From IMG/VR virus record IMGVR_UViG_3300045988_134250: DNA of 64,000 nt. One strand, given 5' to 3'. A program made the position numbers and the translations under genes. The notes below the pieces were generated by a model. It worked only from the letters and a program-made list of their open reading frames with translations, was not told the DNA's origin and searched no databases. The stretch comes from a virus. Taxonomy: Duplodnaviria; Heunggongvirae; Uroviricota; Caudoviricetes. Position 1 is the stretch's first letter; the number at the start of each line of letters is the position of its first letter. Positions 22,874 through 48,300 of the stretch are shown in pieces.

Positions 22874-23178
22874 TGATGACCGGCGAGCTTTATTTTAAAA
22901 TGGCACGGGAGCGGCGTGTGCATCTGGATCGGATATTTCATCTCCAGAAGAGAGTAGAAGAACTGGAACGTCGTCTGAACTGTTATCCTGTTGATATGGT
23001 GTCTGCAATACCGCCGATTCCAATAGAAATGCAGATCCGCCTATGGATGGAAGAATATGGAATGCCGTGGGAGATATTTTTCTGCTTCGACCATAAACAG
23101 TGGGTAGATGAGCTGGATAATAGTTTCCCATATTTCACAGAGAACACATGCCCAGTATGCAGGAAGAACGGAATATGA
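22873..23178 (+). CDS. Small coiled-coil protein with C-terminal CxxC (tandem paralog 2)
   Basis: 101 aa; ends WEIFFCFDHKQWVDELDNSFPYFTENTCPVCRK. Confidence 0.45.
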   Translation: MMTGELYFKMARERRVHLDRIFHLQKRVEELERRLNCYPVDMVSAIPPIPIEMQIRLWMEEYGMPWEIFFCFDHKQWVDELDNSFPYFTENTCPVCRKNGI

Positions 23179-23699
23179 CAAAATTTGGAAAGCTGGAAGC
23201 TCATTTGCTAACTCGCAACTACCGCCATGATATACACCCATATAGACAGTGGATCGATGAAAGCGAAGGAGTAGTTACATTCCCTCTCTACAGGTTTGAT
23301 GGGATGTTGGCTGGGTATCAGACATATAGACCAGGTGCACCTAAGCAGCATAGCAATCCGAAGATGGCCCGGTATTTCACGCGATCACACGGCAGACAGT
23401 TACTTTGGGGAACCTATCTTCCTTTAAAAGATGGCCCAATATGGATAACTGAGTCTATTTTTAAGAGCGCAGCTGTACACAACGCGGGCGGCAATTCGTG
23501 GGCGCTGTTAGGTTCAACTTTCTCCGCAGGATTACGCCGTCAACTTGCGATGCTGCCGTATGACTTTCGCGTAATAGGTGACAATGATGCGGCTGGTGAA
23601 TCACTTGTGAAGTCTTTCGGAAAAGGTTTTGTGGCCCCGGATCTTGACGAGCTACAACCACATGAAGTGTCTCATTTGATTTTTAGCCATAGCCAATAA
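23175..23699 (+). CDS. Small protein with Toprim-like acidic motifs
   Basis: WITESIF...VIGDNDAAGE resembles the Toprim E...DxD signature; last gene of the long plus-strand operon. Confidence 0.35.
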   Translation: MTKFGKLEAHLLTRNYRHDIHPYRQWIDESEGVVTFPLYRFDGMLAGYQTYRPGAPKQHSNPKMARYFTRSHGRQLLWGTYLPLKDGPIWITESIFKSAAVHNAGGNSWALLGSTFSAGLRRQLAMLPYDFRVIGDNDAAGESLVKSFGKGFVAPDLDELQPHEVSHLIFSHSQ

Positions 23700-24470: not shown

Positions 24471-24893
24471 ATGAGTTCGTCTGCTTTTGTCACTGTTGTC
24501 ACTGGAGTAAGCGTTTTTGTCCTAGGTCGACTCATCATCAAGGGGGTTGAGTCTTACATTTCATTCAAGGAACAGTTGGGGGAAATATCGCATCTGTTAT
24601 TGTCTAACCAAGCAAAGCTATCGAATCCCCGCTCTGACTTAAAACAAGAAATCATCCATGATTTGAAAGATGCGGCAGCACAGTTACGGGTGAAGTACGA
24701 ACTATTACCTTTCTATATCAAAATGTTACACATCGGTTTTCGCCTTGTTCCATCAGAAACTGAAATTCGTAAAGCGGCGCAAGAATTGAATCTGATAGCC
24801 TCGATACATGATGGTAAAACCGGAGAGCTGCCATATGAGCACATAGCCAAGATTGGATTACTGCTCAGAATTCCAACCACTTATTCTGCTTAA
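24471..24893 (+). CDS. Hypothetical membrane-anchored protein, AT-rich, between humD and phd
   Basis: 140 aa; N-terminal TM FVTVVTGVSVFVLGRLII. Confidence 0.45.
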   Translation: MSSSAFVTVVTGVSVFVLGRLIIKGVESYISFKEQLGEISHLLLSNQAKLSNPRSDLKQEIIHDLKDAAAQLRVKYELLPFYIKMLHIGFRLVPSETEIRKAAQELNLIASIHDGKTGELPYEHIAKIGLLLRIPTTYSA

Positions 24894-25223: not shown

Positions 25224-25603
25224 TGAGGCATATATCACCGGAAGAACTTATTGCGCTTCATGATGCGAATATAAGCCGCTACGGCGGCCTGCCGGGAATG
25301 TCAGATCCGGGTAGGGCAGAGGCCATTATCGGGAGAGTTCAGGCCAGAGTTGCCTACGAAGAGATCACCGACCTTTTCGAAGTCTCCGCCACCTACCTGG
25401 TGGCTACGGCGAGAGGGCATATATTCAATGATGCCAATAAGCGTACCGCGCTAAACAGTGCGCTGCTATTTCTACGCCGTAACGGTATACAGGTATATGA
25501 TGATCCCGTGCTGGTGGAGCTTGCAGTGGGGGCTGCAACTGGTGAAATCCCCGTATCTTCAGTAGCGAAAAAACTACGTGAACTATATGGTTCCAATATT
25601 TGA
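25223..25603 (+). CDS. doc: Doc toxin (death-on-curing, Fic-fold)
   Basis: 126 aa; [25 protein letters not shown]...[11 protein letters not shown] matches recalled P1 Doc. Confidence 0.9.
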
Positions 25604-25638
25604 AAAGAAGCCCGCTCAACCAGGCGGGCTTCTTACTA

Positions 25639-26733
25639 TCACTCAATGATTTTTTCTGCTGTCAGCCAGCTAATTTCTTGCCTGTCTTTCGGCGGTTTTA
25701 GCATGTGGGCGTATTCAGCGACATTCTCCCACGGAATTGTTTTTGCCCACTCAACGATAGCATTGTGATCTGCAGTGAAGAGTGGAATGGTGTGCGATTT
25801 CAACCATTCTAATGTCGTGACGCCATGTTTTTTGGCGTGGTGCTGCGCATGATGCCGGGCTATCACTCGTAATGGTATTGTCCATTCACTACCATCAGGC
25901 ATCGAAAAGCGCATTGTCTTCGGCATATCTGATTCAAGAACAGCCTCCCTAATACCAGGGAACTCACCAAGAATCATACGACGATAGTCATCACTATTTC
26001 GCCCGCCATACCTTTCGGCAAAATGATCAAGATATTCTTGGGTAATAAATGGTGAATCCTCCGCACTCAGCTTAATGGCTTTATATACACCACTCGGATT
26101 ATCTTCAGCTAAAGCACGTCCATGATGTGAATCATAAAAAAAGCCTATTTCCTCTGGTGACGGAATTGAAGTGAGCAATATGCGTGAATCACCACTAGTC
26201 ATGCTTGCCCACACAATGCTGTATGCCCGATCGCTGATATGTGCGGAATCCACAATAATGAATAAAAGATGGTCGGCGTAGTGACCTGCAATGCTATCTT
26301 CATAGTTAAGGCGGAAGTTACAAAAGCACATTCCCCAAAATTCATTGAACATCAGACCGCTATCACCGACCTTAAAATACTCAATGATAAAAGGTTGTTT
26401 TTTCAGCAATGCCTCCCAACATTGCCACACATATGCAACAATTCCTCTTTTGCAAACATTTGATTTTGGATAAACAATTACTGTCCGGGAATCAGGATAC
26501 ATAATCGTATAAAGGGTACTAATAACAGCAAGCACTTGCGGTCGTCCGATCCCATACGGAGTGGTGACAGTAGCTTTTGCATTATTGGGCTGTATAGCTT
26601 CAACAATTTGTTGTTGCTGGTGGCTTAAATCAATATCAAACAATTCTTTTGCTGCCAGTACCCAATTGTCTTTATATTTCTCCACCAGCGACAGCCAGCG
26701 CGGATCTTTATAAATATTGCTCTTAGTCGCCAT
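25639..26733 (-). CDS. Large-terminase (PacB-type) ATPase-domain paralog with degenerate Walker A/B and no nuclease domain
   Basis: Start at ATG 26733 (MATKSNIYKDPRW...) overlapping the upstream stop (ATGGCGACTAA); aligns to PacB-like ORF 31822-33330 (PSHQQQQI, FFYDSHH, EYGGR) but has TTPYGIGRPQ where PacB has TSGHGTGKSS, and IIVDSAH where PacB has LILDEAS. Confidence 0.65.
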   Translation of the reverse strand: MATKSNIYKDPRWLSLVEKYKDNWVLAAKELFDIDLSHQQQQIVEAIQPNNAKATVTTPYGIGRPQVLAVISTLYTIMYPDSRTVIVYPKSNVCKRGIVAYVWQCWEALLKKQPFIIEYFKVGDSGLMFNEFWGMCFCNFRLNYEDSIAGHYADHLLFIIVDSAHISDRAYSIVWASMTSGDSRILLTSIPSPEEIGFFYDSHHGRALAEDNPSGVYKAIKLSAEDSPFITQEYLDHFAERYGGRNSDDYRRMILGEFPGIREAVLESDMPKTMRFSMPDGSEWTIPLRVIARHHAQHHAKKHGVTTLEWLKSHTIPLFTADHNAIVEWAKTIPWENVAEYAHMLKPPKDRQEISWLTAEKIIE

Positions 26734-27490
26734 CTGCCACTTCCTTAACTTCTTCTTTGGCCTGTTCTGCAATCGCCGCACGGCATTTCGCCCTGGCTGT
26801 AGCGATTGCTTCAGCTCGCACATCGTCTGGAATCGTTGACGTGATATACATATCCAGTTCTTCGGCACGGAATACTGTTTGGTCCAGATATTCGCGTAGC
26901 ATCCAGGTAAATTCGAAATCACACGCGATAATCTCTGCGCTACCTTCTGCACCATTTGGGAAATGAATAAATGCCTGTTTAGCCAAACCGATAACACGAC
27001 ATGCGGTTGCCAAAACAGCGACAACTAGGTTTACATTTTCACACGCTACGGGCTGGTTAACGCCGGAGATTACTCCATTTAACTGTCGGTTATATGGAAG
27101 GTAGTTTGAGATGCGTTCTACGCGCCATGTGCCAGTCAGGCTGCCATTTTTAAATATAATTGGTGTAACGGATAGCCCAAGCTCGCGTATAAGTCGTTGC
27201 GCTATAGCAGGATCATTAAACAGGTCTAATGCTACACATTCGAAAGACTGCGCAAGGGCAAACAGTTCTTCCAGAGAGTAGTCTTTGCCCCTGGCGGTGA
27301 TGTAACGACGAACGCCGCTGTCTGCATCACTCCATATAGCTACGCCATGCTCTTCATTCAGCTCTTCATTAAAGCCGAGATACGTCATGATAGTGCGTTC
27401 AATCGTGTCAAACGGCAGTGACATGTCGGCGTTAACAGCCACCAGCAGGCCATTACGCAAGCGGTATTGAATTGTTTTAGTGCTTTCCAT
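26723..27490 (-). CDS. Hypothetical protein translationally coupled to the terminase-like paralog (small-subunit position)
   Basis: 255 aa; stop overlaps the downstream ATG. Confidence 0.45.
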   Translation of the reverse strand: MESTKTIQYRLRNGLLVAVNADMSLPFDTIERTIMTYLGFNEELNEEHGVAIWSDADSGVRRYITARGKDYSLEELFALAQSFECVALDLFNDPAIAQRLIRELGLSVTPIIFKNGSLTGTWRVERISNYLPYNRQLNGVISGVNQPVACENVNLVVAVLATACRVIGLAKQAFIHFPNGAEGSAEIIACDFEFTWMLREYLDQTVFRAEELDMYITSTIPDDVRAEAIATARAKCRAAIAEQAKEEVKEVADGD

Positions 27491-27496
27491 GTCAAA

Positions 27497-27937
27497 TCAC
27501 TCCACAACAAACCAGTCACAGGCCAGCAGGTCGCCAACTGAAGGCACCCACGGAACAACTACACCTTGTGCATTTTTTAAGGCGAAATAAGCACCATACG
27601 GAACGAGGTCGCCGGGGAAATATCCCTTAATGGCTTCCATTCGTGCCGGGTACTGTCCTTCAGGAACCAGCCAGCAGAATTGGTTTTCGCCGTTCCACCC
27701 GCGTCGAGCAACTTTCTTGCCTTCCTTCAGCCACATCAGCGCGTCTGAAAAGTCGGCTGCTTCAAGGTCGATTTCTTCTTGCTGGGTGGTGATGCCACCA
27801 GCAGAAATAGTTACGCTCCCGGTAAGATTAATCATCACGCCGTTGTCATCCGTAATGATGACCGTGGTTCCATTTTTTTTGTGAGCTTTGTATTTGGGAC
27901 GGAACTTAAAAAGCTCTTTCGTTGCCATGTTATTCAT
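27497..27937 (-). CDS. Small protein with W-rich domain resembling DUF2829 (the family that includes Thoeris anti-defence Tad2)
   Basis: 146 aa; ALMWLKEGKKVARRGWNGENQFCWLVPEG ... DLLACDWFVVE; family assignment from memory, not HMM-verified. Confidence 0.5.
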   Translation of the reverse strand: MNNMATKELFKFRPKYKAHKKNGTTVIITDDNGVMINLTGSVTISAGGITTQQEEIDLEAADFSDALMWLKEGKKVARRGWNGENQFCWLVPEGQYPARMEAIKGYFPGDLVPYGAYFALKNAQGVVVPWVPSVGDLLACDWFVVE

Positions 27938-27951
27938 AGTCTTTTCTCTGC

Positions 27952-28446
27952 TTATAACTTTTCGTACTGAAGCGGTGAACGCTTAATTTCAAAGTGGCCT
28001 TCCGATGTGCTACCAAAGCCACCAGCACCACGCTCCGTTTCGTTGAGTTCCTCAACCTCGACTAGTGAGACTTGTTCAACACGCTCAAAAATTCCTTGCA
28101 TGACAGCCATTCCAGGCTTGAGACAAACGCCTTCCCCGCCGGGATCAGTAATCAGTTTTGCCATGATTTCGCCGCGATAATCGGAGTCGATAATTCCTAC
28201 GCAGTTAGCCAGGCGAGTATGTTTTTTGCAGCCCAATCCTGATCGCGGATAGAGTTTCAGACACCAGCCGGGCGGGATCTCCATAGCCAGTCCGGTATAC
28301 ACCCACCAGCTTGAGGAAATTGCACCATTGCTATCGACGCATGGTTTTATTTCAACAGCCTCAAAATCCATCGCCGCCGATCCGGAGGTGGCATAAGCTG
28401 GAAGTTTTGCTGCCGGATGTAGGCGTTTCACTTTTACGTAAATCAT
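27952..28446 (-). CDS. dut: dUTP diphosphatase
   Basis: 164 aa; RSGLG, GIIDSDYRGE and C-terminal RGAGGFGSTS motifs. Confidence 0.85.
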   Translation of the reverse strand: MIYVKVKRLHPAAKLPAYATSGSAAMDFEAVEIKPCVDSNGAISSSWWVYTGLAMEIPPGWCLKLYPRSGLGCKKHTRLANCVGIIDSDYRGEIMAKLITDPGGEGVCLKPGMAVMQGIFERVEQVSLVEVEELNETERGAGGFGSTSEGHFEIKRSPLQYEKL

Positions 28447-28925
28447 TGTTTTTTAGCTCTCTGCGTGAAGGTGTAAACCCGACGTTTGATATGTGGAACG
28501 GTAGGAACAGGAAGACAGGAACTTTCAATAACTCCTTGCTCATCCAGCGATCGCACCGCCCGCAAGAACTGCGACGTGTCGCCGCCAAACTGGCGGGCAT
28601 AGGTGCTGCCGTTATGAAGTATTTGAGCTATTACCCGAGTTTTTGTCTGGCTGTCACGATATGCGAATAGCCGCACGGCCTCTTCTGGCGCAATCGCTAA
28701 CTGATAGCCTTTCCCGGCACGGTGTCGAATGAATCCATGCGCCAGTAGGTTTTTGAGTTCGTTACGAGTGCGAACAGATCCGTAACCCAGGAAGTGTGGA
28801 TTGATAACGACTGGCTTAAACCATTCCGTAGGTGCTTTAGCTAATAGAGCTAACAGCTTCCCGGATAATTCTGGATAGGAAGACGGGTAACAATTCAGAG
28901 ATGGGTAATAAGTTTTCACCGACAC
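28443..28925 (-). CDS. Hypothetical protein, possible winged-helix DNA-binding
   Basis: 160 aa; overlaps the dut start. Confidence 0.4.
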   Translation of the reverse strand: MSVKTYYPSLNCYPSSYPELSGKLLALLAKAPTEWFKPVVINPHFLGYGSVRTRNELKNLLAHGFIRHRAGKGYQLAIAPEEAVRLFAYRDSQTKTRVIAQILHNGSTYARQFGGDTSQFLRAVRSLDEQGVIESSCLPVPTVPHIKRRVYTFTQRAKKQ

Positions 28926-29260
28926 CCCCTTGCAGGATATCGACCGGCATTAGTATCCGGTGCAATAAAGCCGGTAGTGGGGCGAGTGAAAGCGAGATTA
29001 ATCTTCTCGACCATAGTGCGATAATTTTCCTGATAGTGGGCCAGGAGTTTTTCGGCGGCAATGATGGTTACTTTCCGGACGTAGCTTTCTGCTTCCTCCA
29101 GATTTCGCCAGTTTTTTTCGAGGGTAAACACAGGGACGGCCTCAAGCCCGGTCATGATGCCGAACACAACGACAGCATGACTGTTCTTAACACCAGCGGC
29201 GAAGGTTACGGTGTAACCATCCACCTTGAAGCGTCTTGATTCCGTGATTTGACTCTGCAA
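28916..29260 (-). CDS. Hypothetical protein downstream of dre
   Basis: 114 aa; GTGTTAGAAA site about 60 nt upstream. Confidence 0.4.
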   Translation of the reverse strand: MQSQITESRRFKVDGYTVTFAAGVKNSHAVVVFGIMTGLEAVPVFTLEKNWRNLEEAESYVRKVTIIAAEKLLAHYQENYRTMVEKINLAFTRPTTGFIAPDTNAGRYPARGCR

Positions 29261-29333: not shown

Positions 29334-30362
29334 TTACGAATCCATCAGGCGGCTATTAGCCCCCACAGACACGCCGCCACGGCGAAGATACCGCATAAGT
29401 GTTTCCGGTTTCTTCCAGGTTCCTTCCTGCATGATCTCCACCATAGACACCTGCTTTTCAGCCATATCAATAGCGGCCCCGACGCGTGCACTATGCCCGG
29501 TCCACGTCCGGTATCTTCCTTTGTTTGGCGTAGCATCTCTTTTATTCAGCAACACCCAGGCGTCGCTGAATATTTTCTCCATTGCAGGTGCAGTAAGGGG
29601 CGTTGTCGTGATCCTGGCCTTATTGCTACGGTGTATCGGCGGGAACAGCACTGCGTCAGGATGTTCGCGAAGCCCGGAAACATCCAGCCAGTCATTCAGC
29701 ACAGCGGTAGTGCGACGGGAAAGCACCTTATCAAGCCCGGCGGCGGTCGTTATTGTCTTCGTGTGTGAAATATGTAGCGTGACAGTGTCACCTGTTTGAT
29801 CCAGATCTCCTACACGAATACGCGAGATTTCCGACATACGCATCAGCGTATTGTATGCAACAAAGAGAAAAGCCCGGTTGCGCAGGTCCACCAGCCGTTC
29901 TGACCTGGACAACAGGACGTCGAGCAGTTTCAGATCGTCCCACCGAAGCGGTATAGCCTGGCCTGTTCGTTCGCCTTTTTCAGTTGCCGCTTCGCGCCGG
30001 ATGCGCCGCATAGCCAGAGAAACACTTTTATCATCCGAAAGTGGCGGAAGGCCACAATGCGAAAGCAGCATATTCAGCATGGCGTAGTGCTTATCAATGG
30101 TGGTCGAAGCCAGATCGGCATCATGCAGCTGAAGAAAATACTCGCGGGCCATTTCTGGTGAGATCGGAAACCAGGCAAGCTGGCGAGCGTGACACCAGCG
30201 CGCCCATGAATGAAACACCAACCGGAGGTCGCGCAGAGTATTCGGCGCATAAGCCCCCTGGTCATTCATGAACCGCATAAAGTTTTCTGCGGCCTCCTGG
30301 TACTCTTTGCCAATGTTGCGCAGAAAACCACCGGAGCTGCCAGAGATAATTAATTCACTCAT
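29334..30362 (-). CDS. dre: Tyrosine site-specific recombinase, Cre family (Dre-type)
   Basis: 342 aa; aligns along its length with recalled Cre (NLAFL.IAYNTLLR, WSGHSARVGAA.DMA); rox-type 32 bp site lies about 150 bp upstream. Confidence 0.85.
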   Translation of the reverse strand: MSELIISGSSGGFLRNIGKEYQEAAENFMRFMNDQGAYAPNTLRDLRLVFHSWARWCHARQLAWFPISPEMAREYFLQLHDADLASTTIDKHYAMLNMLLSHCGLPPLSDDKSVSLAMRRIRREAATEKGERTGQAIPLRWDDLKLLDVLLSRSERLVDLRNRAFLFVAYNTLMRMSEISRIRVGDLDQTGDTVTLHISHTKTITTAAGLDKVLSRRTTAVLNDWLDVSGLREHPDAVLFPPIHRSNKARITTTPLTAPAMEKIFSDAWVLLNKRDATPNKGRYRTWTGHSARVGAAIDMAEKQVSMVEIMQEGTWKKPETLMRYLRRGGVSVGANSRLMDS

Positions 30363-30514: not shown

Positions 30515-30546
30515 TAACTTTAAATAATGCCAATTATTTAAAGTTA
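30515..30546. other. rox-type recombination site (lox-like inverted repeat)
   Basis: TAACTTTAAATAATGCCAATTATTTAAAGTTA: perfect inverted arms around a GCCA core, matching the recalled Dre target rox. Confidence 0.8.
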
Positions 30547-30756: not shown

Positions 30757-31794
30757 ATGAGTAAGAAGTCGATCGAGAAAGAGTACAAACGGTTCCTGCA
30801 AACCGCTGAACGGTGGAAAGAGCTGGTGGTCGCAAACTCTGTTTTCCATGATACCAGTTATGCTGGCGAGGAATTCCGCCATGTTGCATTAACGCATGAC
30901 CAAAACATATTAGAAGAAGCTGAAAAATGTCTTGCTGAATGGAAAGCCTTCGTTGACATGTGCCGCGATGCCGACGGCAAAGCGTCGAACATTGTTGAGT
31001 CTGTATATTCTCCGATCCCATTCATCATTGAGGACACCAATCAAAGCACGCATGTTGTTGTGCAAAGCGCTACAACAACACGTACATTTACACGTGAACA
31101 ATTGCTCAAAAAATACGACAAAATCATAAAGAAAAGCCTGAAAAATAGGGTTTTTTCTCAAATCGTAGGTGCTCTTGAAGAAGAACAGCGCTTCTTTGAA
31201 GCTGAGCCTGAAGGCGAGATCTACCGGGCGCGTAAAGAGGCATATACAGATGTTGTGCTGACAACAAACATCGAAGGCAGCAATGCCCTTTCTCGCTTTA
31301 GAGTTGGCGCACATGGCGCATTGGTTTTCGCAAGACTACCGAAGACAACGATCCCCGTTGTCAATAATGTTGGTGAGCGCCGGAGCATTACAATTTATTC
31401 TGGCGTCGAATCGGTACCTTGCAGCCTTCTCGGCGATTTTAACTTATATCGTGTTCGTGACCTGGAAAAACACCAGCCAAGCTACGTTGCGAAGTCGTAC
31501 ATCTTAAGGAACATCGATATTCGCAATGAAAGCCTTAAGCAGAAATCCGCTAAGATGCTGGAGGATGCCGATCCGGCTATTCGCCATATCATTGAGCGTA
31601 AGATACGTACATCACGTGAAGCAATGGCAAGGCTGGATAAAATGGATCTGGAATTGTTAGACGTAATGATGGCCTCTGGAGACGACCTGACCGGCATAAA
31701 ACTGAATGAAGCTCGTAAAAAATACGGCAAAGCAATCGAAGAACGTTACGGATACACATTCCCCCAAACGCAGTACGCCGCGAAGCTCTGGTAA
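30757..31794 (+). CDS. Hypothetical protein divergent from dre, in the position c1 occupies in P1; candidate regulator
   Basis: 345 aa; TGTTAGAAAA site about 20 nt upstream of its start; no similarity to recalled P1 C1. Confidence 0.45.
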   Translation: MSKKSIEKEYKRFLQTAERWKELVVANSVFHDTSYAGEEFRHVALTHDQNILEEAEKCLAEWKAFVDMCRDADGKASNIVESVYSPIPFIIEDTNQSTHVVVQSATTTRTFTREQLLKKYDKIIKKSLKNRVFSQIVGALEEEQRFFEAEPEGEIYRARKEAYTDVVLTTNIEGSNALSRFRVGAHGALVFARLPKTTIPVVNNVGERRSITIYSGVESVPCSLLGDFNLYRVRDLEKHQPSYVAKSYILRNIDIRNESLKQKSAKMLEDADPAIRHIIERKIRTSREAMARLDKMDLELLDVMMASGDDLTGIKLNEARKKYGKAIEERYGYTFPQTQYAAKLW

Positions 31795-31821: not shown

Positions 31822-33330
31822 TTATATATCCAGATCCGGCATTTCGATATCCGCCAGAACCTGATCTCGGAAAGTTGCCATTTCGGCACCAATATCTTCA
31901 TTAGCAGGCACATAGTCCACCAGCATAGTGAAGCAGTAGGTATCCCATCGGTCAGGCGATTTGATGTTTAGCTTTTGCCGCATGTGCTCTTTGCGCATCA
32001 TCGCCATTTTCCCTTCTTCATTCAGTAAAAAGGGGATTTTTGACGCTTGCTCTGCCGTTTTAGGGTCACTGTCTATCCGCATACGCCCTGACTTTATGGC
32101 ATCTCGCGCCATAATATTTGCGTAGGCACGCTGATTAACAAATCGCTCCCTGTCTTTGTTCGCAAACATGGGTTTTCCCCACCGAATACGTACCGGGTTC
32201 GCACCACGACGCACCAACTGCGCACACGTATCAGAACCAAAACCATCAGCATCAACCGCGATTGTTATATTCGGGTATTTTTCCGGCGTACATTCGTTAT
32301 ATATGAAGTCAGCAAAGGCCAATGGGTCCATAGTGCCAGGCATCTCCATTACCTTAAAGTTAACAACGCGCCGCTTATCCCTGTGACCTGATACCTTGCA
32401 GATGTTGAGGACCGACTTATCTCGCCCATTACCAACGTCAGCCGTTGCCACCCATCCCCAGTTTTTCTCCAACAACACCTTGCGGCGAGCAGAGCGATCG
32501 CATTCATCACGACCAAGCAAATAGCCGTTAATTTCTCGTGGGAACTGACCAAGCACCTTGACCATGTACTCAATAGAATCGCGCCCACCATATTCCAGAA
32601 GCTTCTCCTTGATGAATTGTGGTGTGACGAACGGTGATTCTTCCGAGTTAAGAACAATTGCTGTCCAGATCCCTTTCGGGTTGTCTGGGGTTTTTGCTCG
32701 AGAATGGTGCGAATCGTAGAAATAACCACTTGGCCTTGTTGGCTGGGATAGCATCAACATCCGGTTATCTTCTTCAGTAAGAGCACCGGTCATTACGCCG
32801 ATCGCCTTATCAGATATACCAGATGCTTCATCCAGAATTAGAAGCAAATGTGCCGCGTGTTCCCCCGCCAGCGCTTCTTCGTTGCCGAGTCGATAACCTT
32901 TGCAGAGAACTTCCCAAATCCCCTTACGGGAGCGCTCATAAAACATGGTGTCAGAGAGGACAAAATAGGTCTGCAACCACCCATGACGCTTAACTGCATT
33001 CGCCCAATACTGTTTAACGTATTTGAATACGCCTGTTTTTACCTGGCCTATCTTGTTAGCAACAATGATGACACGGGCATCGGGGAACAGGATCATAAAA
33101 ATCAACAGCAACATCGCGGTAAGGGACGACTTCCCCGTTCCGTGTCCGGACGTGACGGTCGTCCTACTCCCCGTTTCCTGCACTGACTGAATGATCTGCT
33201 GCTGCTGGTGGGAGGGGAACATCCCAAAAATATCGACTACAGCCTGGGTAAAGTTGTAGCGGTATTTGATTACCATATCGCGCCAGCGTGGATCGCTGGT
33301 GACGCATTTAATCTTGCGCCCGCCAGCCAT
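31822..33330 (-). CDS. pacB: Terminase large subunit (PacB-type)
   Basis: 502 aa; Walker A TSGHGTGKSS, Walker B LLILDEASG, C-terminal nuclease-like region VATADVG...IAVDADGFG; start overlaps the pacA-like stop. Confidence 0.75.
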   Translation of the reverse strand: MAGGRKIKCVTSDPRWRDMVIKYRYNFTQAVVDIFGMFPSHQQQQIIQSVQETGSRTTVTSGHGTGKSSLTAMLLLIFMILFPDARVIIVANKIGQVKTGVFKYVKQYWANAVKRHGWLQTYFVLSDTMFYERSRKGIWEVLCKGYRLGNEEALAGEHAAHLLLILDEASGISDKAIGVMTGALTEEDNRMLMLSQPTRPSGYFYDSHHSRAKTPDNPKGIWTAIVLNSEESPFVTPQFIKEKLLEYGGRDSIEYMVKVLGQFPREINGYLLGRDECDRSARRKVLLEKNWGWVATADVGNGRDKSVLNICKVSGHRDKRRVVNFKVMEMPGTMDPLAFADFIYNECTPEKYPNITIAVDADGFGSDTCAQLVRRGANPVRIRWGKPMFANKDRERFVNQRAYANIMARDAIKSGRMRIDSDPKTAEQASKIPFLLNEEGKMAMMRKEHMRQKLNIKSPDRWDTYCFTMLVDYVPANEDIGAEMATFRDQVLADIEMPDLDI

Positions 33331-34694
33331 TAATCATCCTCCGGCGGTTCTATCGCGATATCATCATCTCCGGCGTCATACCCTGCATCAGATGCATCAT
33401 AATCACCGTAAATTTCAGCCGTTGCCGAAGGGTCAATATCCAGCTCTTCGTCGTTGGCCTCGAATTCTCCAGCTTTACGCTCGCCATTGCGGTCGTAATC
33501 TCCGCACCCCAATTCTTCAACAATGGTTGCCACATCCGCCCGGCGCTCTGCCAGCCATTGCGGATGGTTAGCCTGAAGCGTTGCAAACTCCCTTGCCTCT
33601 TTGTCCAGCTGTTCATCATCAACATCATTGACGTCAGAAACAGGTGGTTCGAGAAGAGTGATAGCTTTCGCCGCGCGCGCCGCGAGGATAGCCGGGACGC
33701 TGACACCCTGGCGCTCGATGTATTCAGCAACACCGATATCATCCAGTTCCTCGCGCTCACGCATACGTATAGCGGCGGCGATAACTCTGGCTGCGCGTGC
33801 GTCAGCGCCAATGCGATATTCAATCTCTTTGCCACGCTGTTCGGCCTGTAGGCGTGCTAATTCGAGTTTTTCTCTGGCCTCAGCCTCTTTGAATGCTTGC
33901 TGGCGAGCGCTCTGACGAAGCTTTTCATCCCCCTGTCGCAGCTTTTGTTCGGACTGATATATAGCTGCCAACCTACTGATAAAATCATTCATGTAGTAGG
34001 CCGCGTCACTGATTAGACCGAGAAGGCGCTGCCCAGGGTGCATTCCTTCTGGCTCTTTATCGCCCAAGGCGTCTATTTCCGCCTGTAGACGTTCGGCCTC
34101 CTGATCAACAATGCTTTGATACTGAAGTGCGCGCTCTTGCGCCATTTGAATTGCTAACCGCAGGTGTTCTTCTGCGCCGTTCTTCATCATATCGCGAGCC
34201 ACATTCGTAGTTGGCAATGTGGCACGCTGCACAGCACCGTCAGGGATCATTGCAGAAGATCCCTCAATTTTTGGGGCGTTTTTATCTTCTTCGGGGATCA
34301 TTTTCGCCATTTTTTCGCGCAATGATCTCCTGACAGATTCTTTTATCTCATTGTTATTATTTGAATTATTTTCATGATCCGAAGTTTTCTTTCTCGGCAT
34401 ACTTCGGAAAGAACCTGCGCCCTGCGAATTGTCAATTTCTGTAAATTTTGTTTTTTCTGCACCCTCTTCCAGCTTTTTTGTTGCTCTTCCCGCCCGTTTT
34501 TTTTCAGGTGATTTGGTGCTTTTTTTTGTTGTCTTTACCTGCGACCGCACCTCATTTTTTTTCATATTGAGATGCTTTCTGGCTGTATTGAAGCTAAGGC
34601 CATGCTCCTCACAGTATTCCTTTACAGTGATCCCTTTTTCTTCACGCAACGCTATAAAGCGGGCGCGGTGCTCCTCCCAATTAACCAGACTCAT
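33330..34694 (-). CDS. pacA: Terminase small subunit-like protein (PacA-type), with Asn-rich low-complexity insert and acidic tail
   Basis: 454 aa, coupled upstream of the large subunit; N-terminal HTH-like region; NNSNNNNEIKE segment; C-terminal DASDAGYDAGDDDIAIEPPEDD. Confidence 0.6.
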   Translation of the reverse strand: MSLVNWEEHRARFIALREEKGITVKEYCEEHGLSFNTARKHLNMKKNEVRSQVKTTKKSTKSPEKKRAGRATKKLEEGAEKTKFTEIDNSQGAGSFRSMPRKKTSDHENNSNNNNEIKESVRRSLREKMAKMIPEEDKNAPKIEGSSAMIPDGAVQRATLPTTNVARDMMKNGAEEHLRLAIQMAQERALQYQSIVDQEAERLQAEIDALGDKEPEGMHPGQRLLGLISDAAYYMNDFISRLAAIYQSEQKLRQGDEKLRQSARQQAFKEAEAREKLELARLQAEQRGKEIEYRIGADARAARVIAAAIRMREREELDDIGVAEYIERQGVSVPAILAARAAKAITLLEPPVSDVNDVDDEQLDKEAREFATLQANHPQWLAERRADVATIVEELGCGDYDRNGERKAGEFEANDEELDIDPSATAEIYGDYDASDAGYDAGDDDIAIEPPEDD

Positions 34695-42337: not shown

Positions 42338-45300
42338 TTAGGCCGCATCGGCGATTATTTTACGCAGTTCATCTACCGAGTAACGCGTAGATACCATCCA
42401 TGCAGGACGGTCAAAGTTCACATCAGCAACCGGGTTTGCTTCAAAATTCCAGAAACGTCCGCCAATCTTCTTAATCGCGTCTTTGGCGTTCCGTATTGTC
42501 GAGGAACCTGGTTGGTCGGCAATGAGATAAACCGCGCCAACGTCCTCGCTGACGCTCCACCAGCGCCCGCGAACACGCGCCTTAGCGCGAATCGGCTTAT
42601 CATTAACCACAATGATATAGTCATCATTCGCCGCTTCATCAGCTCTGGCTTCAGCCACTGCCGCCTGCTCTTCTCTTTTGCTTTCAGCCTGCTCAAGCCT
42701 TTCCGCGATCTCTGATTCAGTGGCCCCGCCGTTTTTCAGCGATACATAGTCCTGCCACGTTGCCGATTTGAGCGTATCCGGCAACTCATTCACATAGTCG
42801 CCGTCTTTCAACTCACGGGCGCGGCGGGTAGCCATTTCTACCAGGCGATTAACAGAAACAGCATCAGCAAAATCGTCCTTACTAATGTGTTTTTCATCAA
42901 ATGCATTGATGACAGCCCCCACCTTAATCCACTGTGCTGCCGGTGATTCCAGGGGGTTATCAGCCTGAACAATGGCGAGTTTCGCTCCATCTACCCCATT
43001 ATTCGCCAGCTGTTCCAATGCCGCCCATCCATCTGCATCACTGAGTGATTTATATTGCTCAAACAATGCATCGCGCCAGGCCACCAGCGCAGAACGTGTT
43101 TTTTCGATCTTCGCCTTAATTTTCGCGATCTTGACCTGATTAAACATCCGTTCAATATCATCGATATTGCTAAAGGCTTTCATCCTGCCCTGGAATAAAC
43201 GGTATGCCAGCACGGTCCTCCAGAATGATTCCAGACCTTCTCCGGACGGTTTGCGGAACAAGCTAAGAATATCTTCAGAAGTGACTTTATTAAGCGAACG
43301 ACCTGACAGACCACGCCCAGCCATCCAGTTTTCGAACTCATGGGCAACATCATCCATCGTTGCCTGTGCGCCCCATGCCTGCATTCCCTGGGTGTAATCA
43401 TACCCATACAATGCCTGGAGGAATCCCTCGCCGTCCACGATATTCAGCGGGTTATCACTGGCTTGTATTTTTGCCACTTCACGCTTCAGCGCCTCGTCGT
43501 TGCCATCAGGATATATCCATCGCTCAGGTGCTATATCCGATGCTCGCCCGATTTTTTGGCCTATCACGCCATCATAGGCCGATGACAGCGCGATCTGACC
43601 ATCATCTGTGCGATATGCCCAGTATTTAATAGCTGACCCACCGCCCCATGCATTACCAGGTTTACCAGCAATAACATTCATTACCCCATTGCGAATAGCA
43701 TCATAGAACTGATCGCGAGTAAGTATTGTTGATAGCTGGTGGCACTGAACACCACGCGCAGCCGTTGCGCGCGATTCAGCTACCCCCTCTTCAAAAGTTA
43801 CCGCTTCAATCACAGAGTCAAACGGCAATGTAACGATTGACCCCGGTGCTCGAGCGTAACGACTTGCTCTATCCAGCCAGGCGATACGGCAGAGGTATTG
43901 TGCTTTTTCACCGTCAATTTTTTCCACCCGGACAATCGCTGTTGTTTCGCGATCATCAATGACTGCACGGTAATAACTACCTTTATGCAACAGGATATTC
44001 TTGTCAGTGCGCATATATTCCTGTGGGTTCTGAATAACATCGATACTGATATCCAGCACACCAGACTTAATAGCGCGCTCCACATCACCACGAGAGCGTT
44101 TCATTATGGTATCCGCGTCTTTTGCCCTGGTGATCGCAAACCGCAGCACCCGCGCACGTTTTCTGTAGCTACTCAACTGCTCAAGCGCGTATTTTTGCCC
44201 ATTCCTGTTCGTACCCGCTTTTATCAGGTCGTCAAGATTGCGCTGGTAATACTCTATCTGTTCCATCGCGCTTTTCAGTTCTGTCTCCATCATGCCGATA
44301 TCTTTTCCGGCGGCGTTTGCCGCTTTCAGGTAGATATCGAGAGCATTGTTGGCCTCGCGCTGTGCTTTCAGTTTCAGACGTTCTTCACGCTCTTGCGCCT
44401 GGCGAGCCATGATTGCGCGGCGTTCTTCCGGGTTTGCCGCCAGCATAATGGCGCGTTCATCAGCATCATCCGCATCACCATTGGCGATCTCTGACATGTC
44501 GGATGTCATCACCATCTTGATCCAGTCTTTCTTACGTTTCAGCGTATCCAGACGGAAGTCGTCGAATGTGCCTTTGCCACAATAGTAGTGAACATTGACC
44601 TTTTCTTGCGGTGAACCTACGCGCGCACCGCGCCCATTTCGTTGGTCGATACTGGCTGGTGTCCAGGGTAGTGTCAGGTGGTGGATATCGGTTGTCCCGA
44701 TGTGCAGGTTAATACCTACTTCAGCCTTCTTGTTACAGATTATGATGCGCGTGCGACCTTCGTTATAGTCGGCGGCAATACCTTCCATGCCCTCAAGGCC
44801 AGCATCATTTTTAGCGGAGAGATAATCCTCATATTGGGCAAGTTTGCTGTAGTAGGTTTCCCATGCCCCTTCTTTGTATTCACCGTTTTTGTTTGGAGTA
44901 GGTTCGGTCGGCTTATTCACCTTCTTCAGCTTGATGCCACCAGCCTGGCTAACTGTCGTCGCATTGATAATGCCAATCTCCTGCTCCGGCATTTGCAGTG
45001 CACTGGCGATAATACGGCGCAGCTTCTGGTGCTGGGCTTTTTCATCAATAAAGACGATCTGCTTACCGTTCTTCAGACCTTCACGAAGATTTTCGATCAG
45101 CGCGGCATACTTCGGCGGGATGGGGTGCGACACCTGCTGCATATCAATGCCGGCAGCCGCAATGGCCTTCAGTATTTCAGCTTCCAGTTCAATGCTGGCA
45201 CGTATTTCAACATGCGTCGGATGTTCACTAAAAGCGGTCTTCACTACCTTGCTGGTACGCGTACTGACCAGCCCGCCAGCGCCGTCTTCCTCGGCCTCAT

Positions 45301-48300
45301 CAACATCATCTGCCACTTTACCGCCAGCTACTTTTGGCAAGGCATCAGCAATAGCTTTTACCTGGTCTGCAAGCTCAACGGGGAACTGGAATGTAATCGC
45401 ACTGGCATACAGATCCGGGTCTATAGCAACCTTATCCATGTCACGGATGATGGAGAAGATGAAATCATCCGGTTTGTCGTTAGTGATATGCCCGTTTTCA
45501 TCGACTGTCAGCTCATCATTGCGACTTAACTCCTGAGCACGCTTACGAAGCTCTTCATAAGCAGTCTCCTGCTCCCCTGTCATCGGGATCTGCAAGGTGT
45601 TCTCGATGATGTCGGGAATTTTAACCGTCGCTCCGACATCTGCAGCAGTCTTCAGAGTGGTCCAACGATGGAAAATACCACGCAGGCCGTCAAGGTTCTG
45701 GAAGCCCACCAGCCCCTGCTTCTCTTCCACTTCCCCGGAAATTTTCTGGACCTGAACTGTGGCTGTTTTGCCAAACACACGAACGAAATCATCAGGCGTA
45801 ATGATGCCCATACGCATCCACTCTTCCTGCGGAATGACAGTAGACAGCATGTTGAAGGCATCAATCGGACTGTTCACCAGCGGTGTTGCCGTCAGCATGA
45901 CTACACCACGCCCGTTGTTGCGTTTCATCATGTACGCAGCTTTTACAGCCATGTCGCGGGCCATCTTGGATACTGCCGGGTTAGGCAAATATGCCAGTTG
46001 TCCCGCTTCACGCCCGGCATTAAAGGAGTTGCGGTAGTTATGCCCCTCGTCGGCAATCACGCTATCGAAGTTCATATCCTCAAAGTAAGGGATATTCTGC
46101 TTCTTCGTTGTACCGGTATTCGCGGCCTGATCCTTAATCTTGTTCTTCTTCTGCGCATCACGGTGTTTACCGGACGCCAGGTCAAGACGCCCCATTTCCA
46201 CAGCATTAAAGACAGCTTGCTGTGAGTTCTCCTCGATGGTTTTTTCTCGTAGCGGGATAGACGCGAATTGTTCTTTTGTCATGATGACCGTTCGCCAATT
46301 TGACGACGGGATCATGTTCATACGCTGAACGATAACGGCGCTGGAGGACTCTTTCACAACATTTCTGGTAAGAGGCTGCCCGTTACTGTCGAGGCGTGGT
46401 TCGCCATTTTCATCAAGCACCGGCGCGGTCAGAATATTTCCGCTGTCATCACGAACTTCATCCAAACCGATAAACATCATATTGGCGAAGGCATCAGCAC
46501 TGTAGAAACTCTGTGCCTCGTGATACCAGTTCTGATAAACCGCCTTCGGAACAACAATACACGTGCGTTTAGTGCGACCTGTTTCGAAGTTATACGCCTC
46601 AAGCGCAAGCGCGGTCGTGGTTTTACCCAGCCCGGTACCAAATCCCATGATGCCACGCCCATCTTCTGACAAGCGCCGAACTTCTTCATTCTGATAAGTC
46701 AGAGGAATGCGCTTTCCACTAATCCCTTCCAGGCCAAGCGGTGCGTCAGAATGTGTGAACGGAATGAAACCATTGAATGCGTCGTTATAGTCACGGGCTA
46801 TCTGATCCGCCTGCGGGTGGGTGCGTAACCAGTCGTTAAAGCTAACTTCCAGTTGAGCAATTTTATCCAGGTACTCGTTAGCGTTCTGCCCACGCGGTTT
46901 AACACCGTTCAGGTAGTTTTCTAACTGGTTCAGGAAGCCGTCTTTATTGTTGGCCTTCTTGAACTCATTCCCGTTTTTGCCGTTTACGGTTCGTAGCTGA
47001 TAGCCGGTAAATACCCCGTCCTTACCTTCGTAATCGTCCGGAGATACCAGAATGCCATCGACGACCTTCAGATCAGGTTCAGTGTACTTAAACTCGTCAT
47101 AGCCCTGCTCTGCCAGGAACTCTTTTATCAAGCGGCGATCCAGCCAGCGGGCATTCAGATTAACGGTGACTTTATTTAGTGGCGTGAAAATGCGTTTCTC
47201 TTCGATTTTCGCCAACTGACGCTCAAAGTTCGCTTTCTGCTCACCTGTTGACGCATCACGCCAGCCCACCAGCAGTGCTGTTTTGGTTGCAACATCGCCG
47301 CTGGTGGCGCGGTCCATCGGCAGCAGACAGCCATACCCATCAATAGCGATATCATCAAATTTCGCCAGGTATTCAAGGACCGCGTCGTCGTCCTCTGGCA
47401 GTTCACCAGCAAACGCCTCACGAAAGTCGCCCAGCGTTATAGGATTAAGGGCTACATCACTAAAAAGATGTGCTATCACTTGTTCAGGACGCGTAAAGTC
47501 AATACCGGCAGCACCATCCGTTACATCAAGTCGCCCTGCCAGAAGGTCAGAAGTGGAACCATCCTGTTTCACATTGCCAGTGAACGTCATCCAGTTTTTA
47601 GCGCCAGCTTCAGCAAGCCCATTCAGCTTAATCGCGTGCGGTGGTCCATACTTCGCAACTTCTGCTGCCGCCAAGCGGGATGCATCTGCCAGTTTGTCAT
47701 CAACGTTCACCCCCAGGTTACGCAAATCAAGTGCCTTGTTGATCAACTGACCTATCAGTGCACCGCGCATAACGCGCTCCCTGTCTTTTTCTCGCTGCTT
47801 GCCAGCAAAGCGAATCATTGCTGCCACTTCATCACTGACAACCGATGGATAGTCGGACGCGATCGCCGATATCTGGTCCCATGACAAAGCCAGAATCCCG
47901 TTTGTTGACTGGAACGCGATCTGCAGATCGCCAAACGTCGAAACACCATATCGACTTACATCAAGCGCGGAGGATTTGGTTGTCGTGTCCTGAACCCATT
48001 TCAGACCATCAAACTCATGCCAGATACCGCCTACAAGGCGTTTATCGCCCACTTTCGCGCCCTGCCATGCCTGAGTAGTTACGCCGAGCAAATCCCAATT
48101 GATGCGACTATCAAAGCGACGAGATAGCGCGGTTTTCATCGACTCATTGGATACACGACCGTCTTTTTTCACCACTAGGGTATTGCGGAAGCTGGTACGT
48201 TCCATGTCGCCGTAAACAAATCGCTTCCCTTCGGTTGTAAACCATTTCCCTTTGAGGAAGGTAACCCAAAGGACGTTTGCCGATTTGAGCGTCGAATCAT

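What the first reader, a model, noticed from the sequence alone, without database searches (positions are those of the whole stretch)
25639..29260. Operon downstream of dre with a coupled pair ending in an inactivated large-terminase paralog, plus dUTPase and a W-rich small protein
ORF 25639-26733 aligns to the N-terminal ATPase domain of the bona fide PacB-like terminase at 31822-33330 (shared PSHQQQQI, FFYDSHH, EYGGR blocks). The Walker A lysine and P-loop are replaced (TTPYGIGRPQ where PacB has TSGHGTGKSS), the Walker B acidic pair is changed (IIVDSAH where PacB has LILDEAS), and the nuclease domain is replaced by an unrelated 115-aa tail. It is translationally coupled to an upstream 255-aa ORF (ATGGCGACTAA overlap), the way terS/terL pairs are, and is co-directional with a DUF2829-like protein, a dUTPase, two unknown proteins and dre. 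A dead terminase paralog kept with its own partner suggests a decoy or regulator of packaging rather than a packaging enzyme. It may correspond to the poorly characterised P1 pdc-type genes, but here it is convergent with doc.
Basis: partly seen in the sequence, partly recalled or inferred. Interest (0 to 1): 0.7.

Follow-up and report, generated by a model that had tools for sequence, protein, structure and literature searches.

The report
Dead terminase paralog in a phage-plasmid
A P1/D6-like phage-plasmid carries, besides its working DNA-packaging enzyme, a second copy of that enzyme's motor domain in which every ATP-using motif is gone; the copy is still kept by selection and belongs to a widespread, unannotated family whose job is unknown and is probably not packaging.

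Summary
ORF 25639-26733 (-), 364 aa, is a paralog of the window's own PacB/TerL: 37% identity over aa 7-259, E 6e-57, with a confident TerL-ATPase fold. The Walker A lysine and serine, the Walker B aspartate and glutamate, and the C-motif glutamine and arginine are lost. The nuclease domain is replaced by an unrelated ~100-aa tail. It is not a decaying pseudogene, because dN/dS is about 0.05-0.16 across six intact alleles. 163 of 749 PacB-bearing plasmids carry a full-length copy alongside a PacB-like match. Related dead copies form mainly one clade and come in three forms: N-domain only, N-domain plus tail, or N-domain plus another C-terminal domain. The tail is a separate domain that sits in recombination or replication gene modules of unrelated phages. 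The upstream 255-aa partner is IsaA-like, not TerS-like, and each gene often occurs without the other. The gene is not P1 pdcA or pdcB. No function has been shown. My best inference (about 0.35) is a binding-only accessory factor in recombination, replication or DNA-end handling. The rivals are a terminase antagonist (0.25) and a mimic aimed at terminase-sensing immunity (0.15). The W-rich DUF2829 protein matches Pfam Tad2-like (anti-Thoeris).

The parts
25639..26733 (-). Pseudo-terminase gene: 364 aa, made of a dead PacB/TerL ATPase domain plus a C-terminal tail domain.
   Evidence: BLASTP to the window's PacB gives 37% identity, E 6e-57. AF2 gives pLDDT above 90 for aa 10-260, and Foldseek top hits are TerL ATPase domains. 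It matches PHROG 5902, 'unknown function'. dN/dS is 0.05-0.16.
25954..26733 (-). N-terminal domain (aa 1-260) with the TerL ATPase fold and lost catalytic motifs.
26536..26565 (-). Degenerate Walker A position: TTPYGIGRPQ (aa 57-66), where PacB has TSGHGTGKSS.
   Evidence: Read from the sequence and the alignment. The Lys and Ser are invariant in 16 live relatives and unconstrained in 13 dead ones.
26230..26271 (-). Degenerate Walker B position: HLLFIIVDSAHISD (aa 155-168), where PacB has HLLLILDEASGISD.
25645..25935 (-). C-terminal tail domain (aa ~267-363), an independent ~95-aa domain family.
   Evidence: It matches standalone ~100-aa proteins. It also matches Cronobacter JK004 gene_35, the C-terminus of Xanthomonas CP2 ORF36, and Bordetella PHB04 gp107. 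It has no Pfam or PDB sequence match. AF2 confidence is low, pLDDT 28-68.
26723..27490 (-). IsaA-like gene (255 aa), translationally coupled to the pseudo-terminase by an 11-nt overlap.
25603..25634 (.). Hairpin terminator shared by the convergent doc and pseudo-terminase transcripts.
   Evidence: (stem 25610-25625 followed by a T-run) and the sequence. It is conserved in D6.
27497..27937 (-). DUF2829 / Tad2-like gene (146 aa).
   Evidence: Pfam PF11195 Tad2-like, E 5.9e-23, 81.6 bits against a cut-off of 25.
27952..28446 (-). dUTPase gene (164 aa).
   Evidence: Pfam PF00692, E 1.7e-14. PHROG 135 dUTPase, E 5e-62.
28443..28925 (-). Unknown ORF (D6 orf116-like).
   Evidence: PHROG 6669, unknown function. 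D6 annotation.
28916..29260 (-). Unknown ORF (D6 orf117-like), with a TTG start after an AGGAGG Shine-Dalgarno.
   Evidence: PHROG 1968. Sequence.
29334..30362 (-). dre tyrosine recombinase, the first gene of the co-directional block.
   Evidence: D6 annotation.
31822..33330 (-). The real PacB/TerL (502 aa), with intact Walker A and B. It is the active paralog.

Best explanation
**Shown**
- The 364-aa protein is a selectively maintained pseudo-enzyme.
- It is an old duplicate of the PacB/TerL ATPase domain that keeps the fold but has lost Walker A, Walker B and the C-motif, and has no nuclease domain.
- It has gained a ~95-aa C-terminal module.
- It is an optional cargo gene sitting at the 3' end of the dre-dut-tad2-isaA gene block.

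**Inferred**
- It acts by binding, not by hydrolysing ATP or moving DNA.
- It does not act in the packaging motor. It acts in the element's early or plasmid-state DNA transactions: recombination, replication or DNA-end handling.
- The TerL-derived domain would supply a DNA-binding or partner-binding scaffold.
- The tail would dock it to recombination or replication proteins. It may modulate a partner nuclease encoded next to it (IsaA-like here, Ref in a relative).

**Confidence**
- About 0.9 for the identity as a selected, dead TerL-ATPase paralog.
- About 0.35 for the proposed arena and mechanism. The confidence field below refers to this second figure.
For: **Identity**
- 37% identity to PacB, E 6e-57.
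- AF2 pLDDT above 90 for the N-domain. Foldseek top hits are the P74-26, T4 gp17, D6E and Sf6 TerL ATPase domains.

**Loss of catalysis**
- Residues conserved in at least 88% of 16 live relatives are unconstrained in 13 dead ones. They are PacB H63, K67, S68, D167, E168, Q196 and R199.
- The replacing residues differ between variants: R, Q, H or E at the Walker A lysine, and DS, TE, AE, MD or NA at Walker B.

**Selection**
- Six alleles are all intact. dN/dS is 0.05-0.16 for the informative pairs, in both the N-domain and the tail.
- 163 of 749 plasmids with a PacB-like match carry a full-length copy. Every listed carrier has a second match in the record, consistent with a resident pacB.

**Not in the packaging module**
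- The gene is never next to pacAB.
- It shows no closer similarity to the resident PacB type than to other types.

**Context of the tail domain**
- In Xanthomonas CP2 it is fused to DUF1351 directly upstream of Erf, an exonuclease, an endonuclease and SSB.
- In Bordetella PHB04 it follows a RecE-like exonuclease and an SMC/AAA_23 ATPase.
- In Cronobacter JK004 it lies downstream of a DnaB-type helicase.
- In P1-type elements the isaA-paralog pair follows ssb.

**Context of other dead paralogs**
- One lies directly after ssb.
- One is translationally coupled to a Ref-like RecA-dependent nuclease. Ref is nearby again in L023.
- One lies in a region with hot, a umuC-like gene and SRAP.

**Domain linkage**
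- The tail and the N-domain occur in both orders and as separate genes.
Against: - There is no experimental or direct computational evidence for any binding partner.
- Early and accessory regions of P1-like elements are rich in DNA-metabolism genes anyway, so the neighbourhood signal for the N-domain is weak. Only about 8 contexts were seen.
- Two contexts, the window and L026, instead place the gene next to Tad2-like and phd-doc. That fits a conflict role.
- Pseudo-enzymes often regulate their active paralog, which favours the terminase-antagonist rival.
- The tail is modelled with low confidence.
- P1 and D6 do without the gene.
Confidence: 0.35

Rival explanations
1. Terminase antagonist or regulator. 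The dead ATPase domain would bind PacA or join the PacB ATPase ring. There it would act as a non-hydrolysing subunit that delays or blocks pac cleavage and packaging. The target could be the element's own terminase (timing control) or that of a superinfecting P1-like rival (exclusion).
For: - It is a true paralog of PacB with the fold retained.
- It has lost both its own hydrolysis motifs and an arginine conserved in 88% of live relatives, PacB R199. I did not test whether that arginine is a trans-acting finger.
- Ring ATPase motors are sensitive to single inactive subunits, and pseudo-enzymes commonly regulate active paralogs (both from general knowledge).
- It shows presence/absence polymorphism and strong divergence between variants (51-66% identity) inside otherwise 92-97% identical backbones. 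That pattern suits a competition gene.
Against: - It is never adjacent to pacAB or to late genes.
- It does not co-vary with the resident PacB type. All variants are about 31-40% identical to all PacB types.
- The N-terminal segment is not jointly conserved between dead and live clades, apart from Q40.
- This reading does not explain the recombination-module context of the tail, or the alternative C-terminal domain of P0016.
- It lacks the C-terminal domain that in several TerLs contacts the portal (general knowledge).
Confidence: 0.25
2. Immune-evasion mimic. An abundant early protein with the TerL ATPase fold would occupy or mislead host sensors that detect large terminases (Avs1-3, Upx). 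Having lost ATP binding, it would fail to complete the ATP-dependent recognition that triggers them.
For: - It lies in the same gene block as a Tad2-like anti-Thoeris gene, here and in the distant relative L026.
- It behaves as accessory, hot-spot cargo.
- EcAvs2 recognises the terminase ATPase domain partly through the ATP bound at its Walker site plus a bridging ATP. Non-terminase, TerL-ATPase-like phage proteins (T4 vs.8, Ksap1/2) fit the same pocket, and the authors suggest they may be anti-defence proteins (PMC13601566).
Against: - Known TerL-like accessory proteins activate Avs2 rather than block it. A binder would be expected to trigger oligomerisation.
- It has no sequence similarity to vs.8.
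- It has no PADLOC match, and no anti-defence library was available to search.
- This reading does not explain the context of the tail domain.
Confidence: 0.15
3. An active ATPase with unorthodox motifs. Some variants carry a lysine one residue downstream of the usual position, as in GIGQKT.
For: - P0004, P0005 and P0006 read GIGQKT or GIGHKS, and two of them keep a Glu at the second Walker B position.
- The upstream Q40 and the P-loop glycines G61 and G63 are invariant in both the dead and the live clade.
Against: - The window's allele has no lysine at all in the loop (GIGRPQ), and has DS at Walker B.
- The residues at these positions vary freely across the clade. That is not the pattern expected of a conserved active site.
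Confidence: 0.05
4. A decaying pseudogene or an annotation artefact with no function.
For: - The catalytic motifs are destroyed.
- The gene is absent from D6 and P1.
Against: - The frame is intact in all six sampled alleles, and dN/dS is 0.05-0.16.
- Full-length copies are found in 163 plasmids.
- Orthologs at 51% identity keep the same length and architecture.
- It has a good Shine-Dalgarno sequence, translational coupling and a terminator.
Confidence: 0.03

Closest known systems
PacB, the large terminase (TerL) of P1/D6-like phages
   Same: The N-terminal ~260 aa are homologous: 37% identity to the window's own PacB and 31-40% to other PacB types. The ATPase fold is the same. They share Q40, the P-loop glycines, and the EExLAG, GxFY..HH, SAEDSP and YGGR..Y..LGxFP blocks.
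   Different: It has no Walker A Lys/Ser, no Walker B Asp/Glu, no C-motif Gln or following Arg, and no nuclease domain. It is not in the packaging module. It is optional, present in about 22% of PacB-bearing plasmids.
T4 vs.8 and Klebsiella-phage Ksap1/Ksap2: TerL-ATPase-like accessory proteins reported as non-terminase activators of Avs2 (PMC13601566)
   Same: They are stand-alone phage proteins with a terminase-ATPase-like fold, no nuclease domain and unknown function. vs.8 lies next to the repair gene denV.
   Different: vs.8 keeps Walker A and B: GGRQSGKS and LYIIDEP. It has no detectable sequence similarity to this protein. It comes from a different TerL lineage. Avs2 activation was not tested here.
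PHROG 5902 (and 20197), 'unknown function'
   Same: The protein matches the whole 359-position profile, E 8.6e-165. Other dead paralogs and the standalone tails match the corresponding parts of it.
   Different: The PHROG carries no annotation and also scores real PacB highly. So the family has been catalogued but not recognised as a dead terminase paralog.
P1 IsaA (for the upstream 255-aa ORF)
   Same: 48% identity over 225 aa. In P1-type relatives the same isaA-paralog pair lies between ssb and hxr.
   Different: In P1 itself IS1 follows isaA, and isaB is unrelated to the paralog. The function of IsaA is unknown, and it is non-essential in P1 (PMC10695390).
Inactive paralog subunits of ATPase assemblies, such as clamp-loader delta-prime and the Rad51 paralogs (from general knowledge, not tested)
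   Same: They are duplicates with a retained fold and degenerate nucleotide motifs that work by binding.
   Different: No assembly partner is known here.

Membership tests
Large terminase subunit (TerL/PacB) | Homology to, and the fold of, the TerL N-terminal ATPase domain | tested here: met
   BLASTP E 6e-57 against PacB. The AF2 model's top Foldseek hits are TerL ATPase domains, E 1e-7.
Large terminase subunit (TerL/PacB) | Walker A P-loop GxxxxGK[ST] | tested here: not met
   The window has TTPYGIGRPQ. The Lys and Ser are invariant in 16 live relatives and unconstrained in 13 dead ones.
Large terminase subunit (TerL/PacB) | Walker B hhhhDE with the catalytic glutamate | tested here: not met
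   The window has IIVDSAH where PacB has LILDEAS. Across the clade the pair reads DS, TE, AE, MD, NA or NS.
Large terminase subunit (TerL/PacB) | C-terminal RNase H-like nuclease domain | tested here: not met
   The alignment to PacB ends at aa 259. A profile of the tail does not hit PacB. The tail belongs to a separate small-domain family.
Large terminase subunit (TerL/PacB) | Encoded next to the small terminase in the packaging module | tested here: not met
   It lies at the end of the dre gene block. The real pacA-pacB genes are at 31822-34694.
TerL-ATPase-like accessory proteins (T4 vs.8 type) | Stand-alone TerL-ATPase-like fold without a nuclease domain | tested here: met
   The definition comes from PMC13601566.
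TerL-ATPase-like accessory proteins (T4 vs.8 type) | Conserved Walker A/B motifs and sequence relatedness to vs.8 | tested here: not met
   vs.8 has GGRQSGKS and LYIIDEP. BLASTP between the two proteins finds nothing.
TerL-ATPase-like accessory proteins (T4 vs.8 type) | Activation of Avs2 | not testable with these tools
   This needs a co-expression toxicity assay or a complex prediction.
P1 PdcA / PdcB | Sequence homology to P1 pdcA or pdcB | tested here: not met
   tblastn of the 364-aa protein against P1 genomes hits only pacB. D6's pdcA-like orf112 and pdcB-like orf98 are different ORFs. The pdcA-like segment is absent from the window.
Small terminase (TerS/PacA), tested for the 255-aa partner | Homology or fold resemblance to TerS | tested here: not met
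P1 IsaA, tested for the 255-aa partner | Sequence homology to P1 IsaA | tested here: met
   48% identity over 88% of the query, E 6e-66. It matches PHROG 2326.
Tad2 (Thoeris anti-defence 2), tested for ORF 27497-27937 | Pfam PF11195 match above the gathering score | tested here: met
   81.6 bits against a cut-off of 25, E 5.9e-23.
Tad2 (Thoeris anti-defence 2), tested for ORF 27497-27937 | Sequestration of the Thoeris signalling nucleotide | not testable with these tools
   This needs a biochemical assay.

The most novel reading that the evidence does not exclude
The dead paralogs are terminase mimics used in conflict. One version is that they poison the packaging motor or terminase holoenzyme of rival P1-like phages. 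The other is that they blunt host sensors that recognise large terminases (Avs1-3, Upx). In both versions, loss of the ATP site and the swappable C-terminal modules are the adaptations that make them inhibitors rather than enzymes or triggers.
Probability: 0.25. Interest if true: 0.85.

Novelty: new variant of a known kind. Interest (0 to 1): 0.6.

Why it matters
Large terminases are the most conserved proteins of tailed phages. They are the hallmark used to find and classify phages, and they are a main target of bacterial pattern-recognition immunity.

A widespread family keeps the terminase ATPase fold under purifying selection with all catalytic motifs gone. That shows the fold has been reused for a non-motor job.

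- **Annotation.** Some records already label these genes 'terminase large subunit'. That miscounts terminases in phage-plasmids.
- **Open question.** It gives a concrete and abundant test case for what TerL-ATPase-like accessory proteins do. That question was raised for T4 vs.8 and Ksap1/2.
- **New domain.** The ~95-aa tail marks recombination modules in unrelated phages and has no assigned family.

Tried and rejected
**Family and structure libraries**
- Pfam, NCBIfam and PADLOC gave no match for the 364-aa or the 255-aa protein.
- PDB sequence searches gave nothing for the whole protein or for a tail profile.

**Searches that failed or were uninformative**
- A word-indexed homolog search with the tail alone returned only fragments.
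- The afdb50 fold library was unavailable.
- A BFVD fold search of IsaA returned only P1's own fragment.

**Ideas tested and dropped**
- P1 isaB is not a remnant of the paralog; there is no similarity.
- IsaA-like is not TerS-like.
- The paralog does not co-evolve with the resident PacB type.
- The paralog is not related to T4 vs.8 by BLASTP.
- No P1 C1 operator consensus is present in the window, so regulation could not be inferred that way.
- The only strong sigma-70-like promoter lies upstream of dre and overlaps rox. No internal promoter was found.

**Literature**
- I found no description of this paralog.
- The P1 genome paper and the D6 genome paper are not in the library, so an earlier mention there cannot be excluded.

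Full report
**What the window is**

The region is 97.6% identical to phage D6 and 100% identical to E. coli plasmids such as NZ_CP074704.1. So the window comes from a D6-type, P1-like phage-plasmid.

The local gene order is:
- humD, orf109, phd and doc on the + strand;
- then, convergent on the - strand, the 364-aa ORF, the IsaA-like ORF, DUF2829, dut, two unknown ORFs and dre;
- then rox, a C1-like ORF on the + strand, and pacB-pacA on the - strand.

**Checking the observation**

- ORF 25639-26733 (-) encodes 364 aa.
- Its ATG follows an AAGGAAG Shine-Dalgarno and overlaps the TAA of the upstream 255-aa ORF within ATGGCGACTAA.
- NCBI's annotation of the identical plasmid uses the same start.
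- A hairpin followed by a T-run lies between its stop codon and doc.
- BLASTP against the window's own PacB gives 37% identity over aa 7-259, E 6e-57.
- The quoted substitutions are correct: TTPYGIGRPQ for TSGHGTGKSS, and IIVDSAH for LILDEAS.
- The PacB alignment ends at aa 259. A profile of the tail finds no match in PacB.

Two small corrections apply. The shared blocks are SHQQQQI, FYDSHH and YGGR, and the tail is about 105 aa.

**The fold is kept**

- An AF2 model built on a 39-sequence alignment has pLDDT above 90 over aa 10-260.
- Its best Foldseek hits in the PDB are the large-terminase ATPase domains of P74-26, T4 gp17, D6E and Sf6, with E from 1e-7 to 1e-5.

**Catalysis is gone**

An exhaustive search of 1.84 billion representative proteins found 793 relatives. 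I examined the best 150.
- 116 have intact Walker A and B motifs. About 105 of them are 440-860 aa long. The 11 shorter ones (176-404 aa) were not examined and may be fragments.
- 22 have degenerate or unusual motifs. About 18 of those are plausibly dead paralogs. The rest are short fragments or carry only a variant Walker A.
- The dead ones are 230-270 aa (N-domain only), 364-366 aa (with the tail) or 444 aa (with a different C-terminal domain).

I then compared 13 dead sequences with 16 live PacB-like ones.
- Conserved in at least 88% of live sequences but unconstrained in dead ones: PacB H63, K67, S68, Q96, K103, W118, D167, E168, N189, Q196 and R199. These include Walker A, Walker B and the C-motif.
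- Conserved in both groups: fold-defining positions including Q40, G61, G63, the EExLAG block, GxFY and GG.
- The replacing residues differ from variant to variant. This is the pattern of relaxed constraint on the active site, not of an alternative active site.

**It is not a pseudogene**

- Six alleles from E. coli and Salmonella plasmids are all intact.
- For the informative pairs (dS up to 0.14 for the whole gene), dN/dS is 0.05-0.16, in both the N-domain and the tail.
- An ortholog at 51% identity keeps the same length and architecture.
- In PLSDB, 163 of 749 plasmids with a PacB-like match carry a copy covering at least 80% of the query. By identity, 34 are at 95% or more, 10 are at 60-80%, and about 119 are near 51%. 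Every listed carrier also has a second match in the record, consistent with a resident pacB.

**Evolution and mobility**

- In a neighbour-joining tree, 13 of 15 dead sequences form one clade beside the live PacB-like clade. P0043 and P0112 fall elsewhere, which may mean a second origin. Long-branch effects cannot be excluded.
- All dead variants are about equally distant (31-40%) from all PacB types. So there is no sign of co-evolution with the resident enzyme.
- Relative to D6, the window has a clean 1.1-kb insertion or deletion (25632-26749) that holds exactly this gene. The shared terminator is kept.
- In P1-type elements the isaA-paralog pair sits between ssb and hxr, a known variable region. 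In P1 itself IS1 and the unrelated isaB occupy that place.

**The partner**

- The 255-aa ORF is IsaA-like: 48% identity to P1 IsaA.
- Its AF2 model (pLDDT 84) is an alpha/beta fold with a long C-terminal helix.
- It is unrelated to PacA.
- IsaA often occurs without the paralog. Examples are D6, P1, and the roughly 200 of 238 plasmids that match the 2.1-kb region without covering at least 80% of it.
- Dead paralogs often occur without an adjacent IsaA.

The 'terS/terL-like pair' reading is therefore not supported. The translational coupling is real and recurs in two diverged lineages.

**The tail**

Residues ~267-363 match standalone proteins of about 100 aa. Twelve positions are invariant in a 10-sequence alignment. 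There is no Pfam or PDB sequence match.

| Phage | Form of the tail domain | Neighbouring genes |
|---|---|---|
| Xanthomonas CP2 | C-terminus of a DUF1351 protein | Directly upstream of Erf, an exonuclease, an endonuclease and SSB |
| Bordetella PHB04 | N-terminal part of gp107 | Follows a RecE-like exonuclease and an SMC/AAA_23 ATPase |
| Cronobacter JK004 | Standalone gene_35 | Downstream of a DnaB-type helicase |
| Contig L023 | N-terminal to the dead domain | Ref-like nuclease nearby |

Every context outside the paralog is a recombination or replication module. The two domains occur in both orders and as separate genes. Both points argue that they work together, in that arena.

**Contexts of other dead paralogs**

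- Directly after ssb.
- Overlapping by 4 nt the stop of a Ref-like RecA-dependent nuclease gene.
- After a radical-SAM gene.
- In a region with hot, a umuC-like gene and SRAP.
- In L026, after a Tad2-like gene and before phd/Fic-doc. This is the same synteny as the window, at only about 25% identity.

In most of these contexts the gene looks like the last gene of its block.

**Interpretation**

- *Shown:* this is a dead, selected, modular derivative of the PacB ATPase domain, carried as optional cargo.
- *Inferred:* it acts by binding.

The tail's contexts and several N-domain contexts point to recombination, replication or DNA-end handling. It may modulate a neighbouring nuclease. I give this about 0.35.

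The grounds are general: pseudo-enzymes often regulate active paralogs, and ring motors are sensitive to dead subunits. It has no contextual or co-variation support.

A mimic aimed at terminase-sensing immunity gets 0.15. Support comes from the Tad2-like neighbour and from a recent report. That report shows Avs2 reads the ATPase domain partly through its bound ATP. It also shows that other TerL-ATPase-like accessory proteins (T4 vs.8, Ksap1/2) fit the same pocket (PMC13601566). Those proteins activate the sensor, however, and vs.8 keeps its Walker motifs and is unrelated in sequence.

**Comparison with what is known**

- The protein fails four of the five defining features of a large terminase. 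It is a paralog, not a terminase.
- It is not pdcA or pdcB.
- PHROG 5902 already groups it, as 'unknown function'.
- Some GenBank records call it 'terminase large subunit'.
- I found no paper describing it, but the P1 and D6 genome papers were not available.

**Other genes in the finding**

- The DUF2829 'W-rich' protein matches Pfam Tad2-like well above threshold.
- The dut gene is a standard dUTPase.
- The two ORFs between dut and dre remain unknown (PHROGs 6669 and 1968).

**Verdict**

This is a new variant of a known kind: a pseudo-enzyme offshoot of TerL, allied in concept to vs.8-type accessory proteins. It is of moderate to high interest because the family is common, selected, unannotated and experimentally tractable.

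Noticed in passing
window 30515-30546: A 32-bp rox site (TAACTTTAAATAAT-TGGC-ATTATTTAAAGTTA, read on the - strand). The only strong sigma-70-like promoter upstream of dre (TTGGCA-16-TATAAT, 30533 to 30506) has its -35 hexamer inside the rox spacer.
   Followed up: partly
window 30757-31794 (+): A 345-aa ORF between rox and pacB. It matches PHROG 1678 (unknown function) and has a weak sub-threshold match to NCBIfam 'phage repressor protein C1' (E 9e-6, 25 bits against a cut-off of 500). It is probably the D6-type C1 analog. No P1 C1 operator consensus occurs anywhere in the window.
   Followed up: partly
window 25560-25588, compared with D6 locus L001 7561-7791: D6 carries a pdcA-like ORF (orf112) between doc and the shared terminator, and the window lacks it. 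Conversely, the window has the 1.1-kb pseudo-terminase segment that D6 lacks. The doc-proximal junction therefore carries two independent insertions or deletions.
   Followed up: partly
L007 2774-4309 (Xanthomonas CP2 ORF36); L030 3992-4555 (Bordetella PHB04 gp107); L006 4995-5291 (Cronobacter JK004 gene_35): The ~95-aa tail is an unassigned domain family. It recurs in recombination or replication modules of unrelated phages: fused to DUF1351 next to Erf, an exonuclease and SSB; after a RecE-like exonuclease and an SMC-like ATPase; and downstream of a DnaB-type helicase. It deserves its own family definition.
   Followed up: partly
L010 6336-7792: In another cre-bearing, 84-kb P1/D6-like contig, a 263-aa dead paralog (P0014) overlaps by 4 nt the stop of a Ref-like RecA-dependent nuclease gene.
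   Followed up: partly
L008 7001-8335 (P0016): A 444-aa dead paralog carries a different ~190-aa C-terminal domain, unrelated to the tail. The dead N-domain therefore combines with alternative C-terminal modules.
   Followed up: no
P0043, P0112 (L022): Two dead TerL-ATPase-only proteins fall outside the main dead clade in the neighbour-joining tree. This may be an independent second loss of catalysis.
   Followed up: no
L026 5276-6693: In a distant phage-plasmid (92.9-kb contig), a dead paralog only ~25% identical to the window's keeps the same local order as the window: Tad2-like, dead paralog, then convergent Fic/doc-phd. An Ldr-type toxin ORF lies in between.
   Followed up: no
window 24471-24893 (+): A 140-aa ORF (D6 orf109) lies between humD and phd. 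It has no PADLOC match. Other family libraries were not searched for it.
   Followed up: no
L002 5995-7089 (MH422554) and P0002: Public records label dead paralogs 'terminase large subunit'. One metagenomic entry (P0002, 438 aa) is extended upstream into the IsaA-like reading region. These are annotation errors that inflate terminase counts.
   Followed up: partly
window 23148-23699 (+) and 42338-49174 (-): The first ORF, at 23148-23699, is annotated as a toprim-domain protein in the identical plasmid. A 2278-aa ORF at 42338-49174 was listed but not examined.
   Followed up: no
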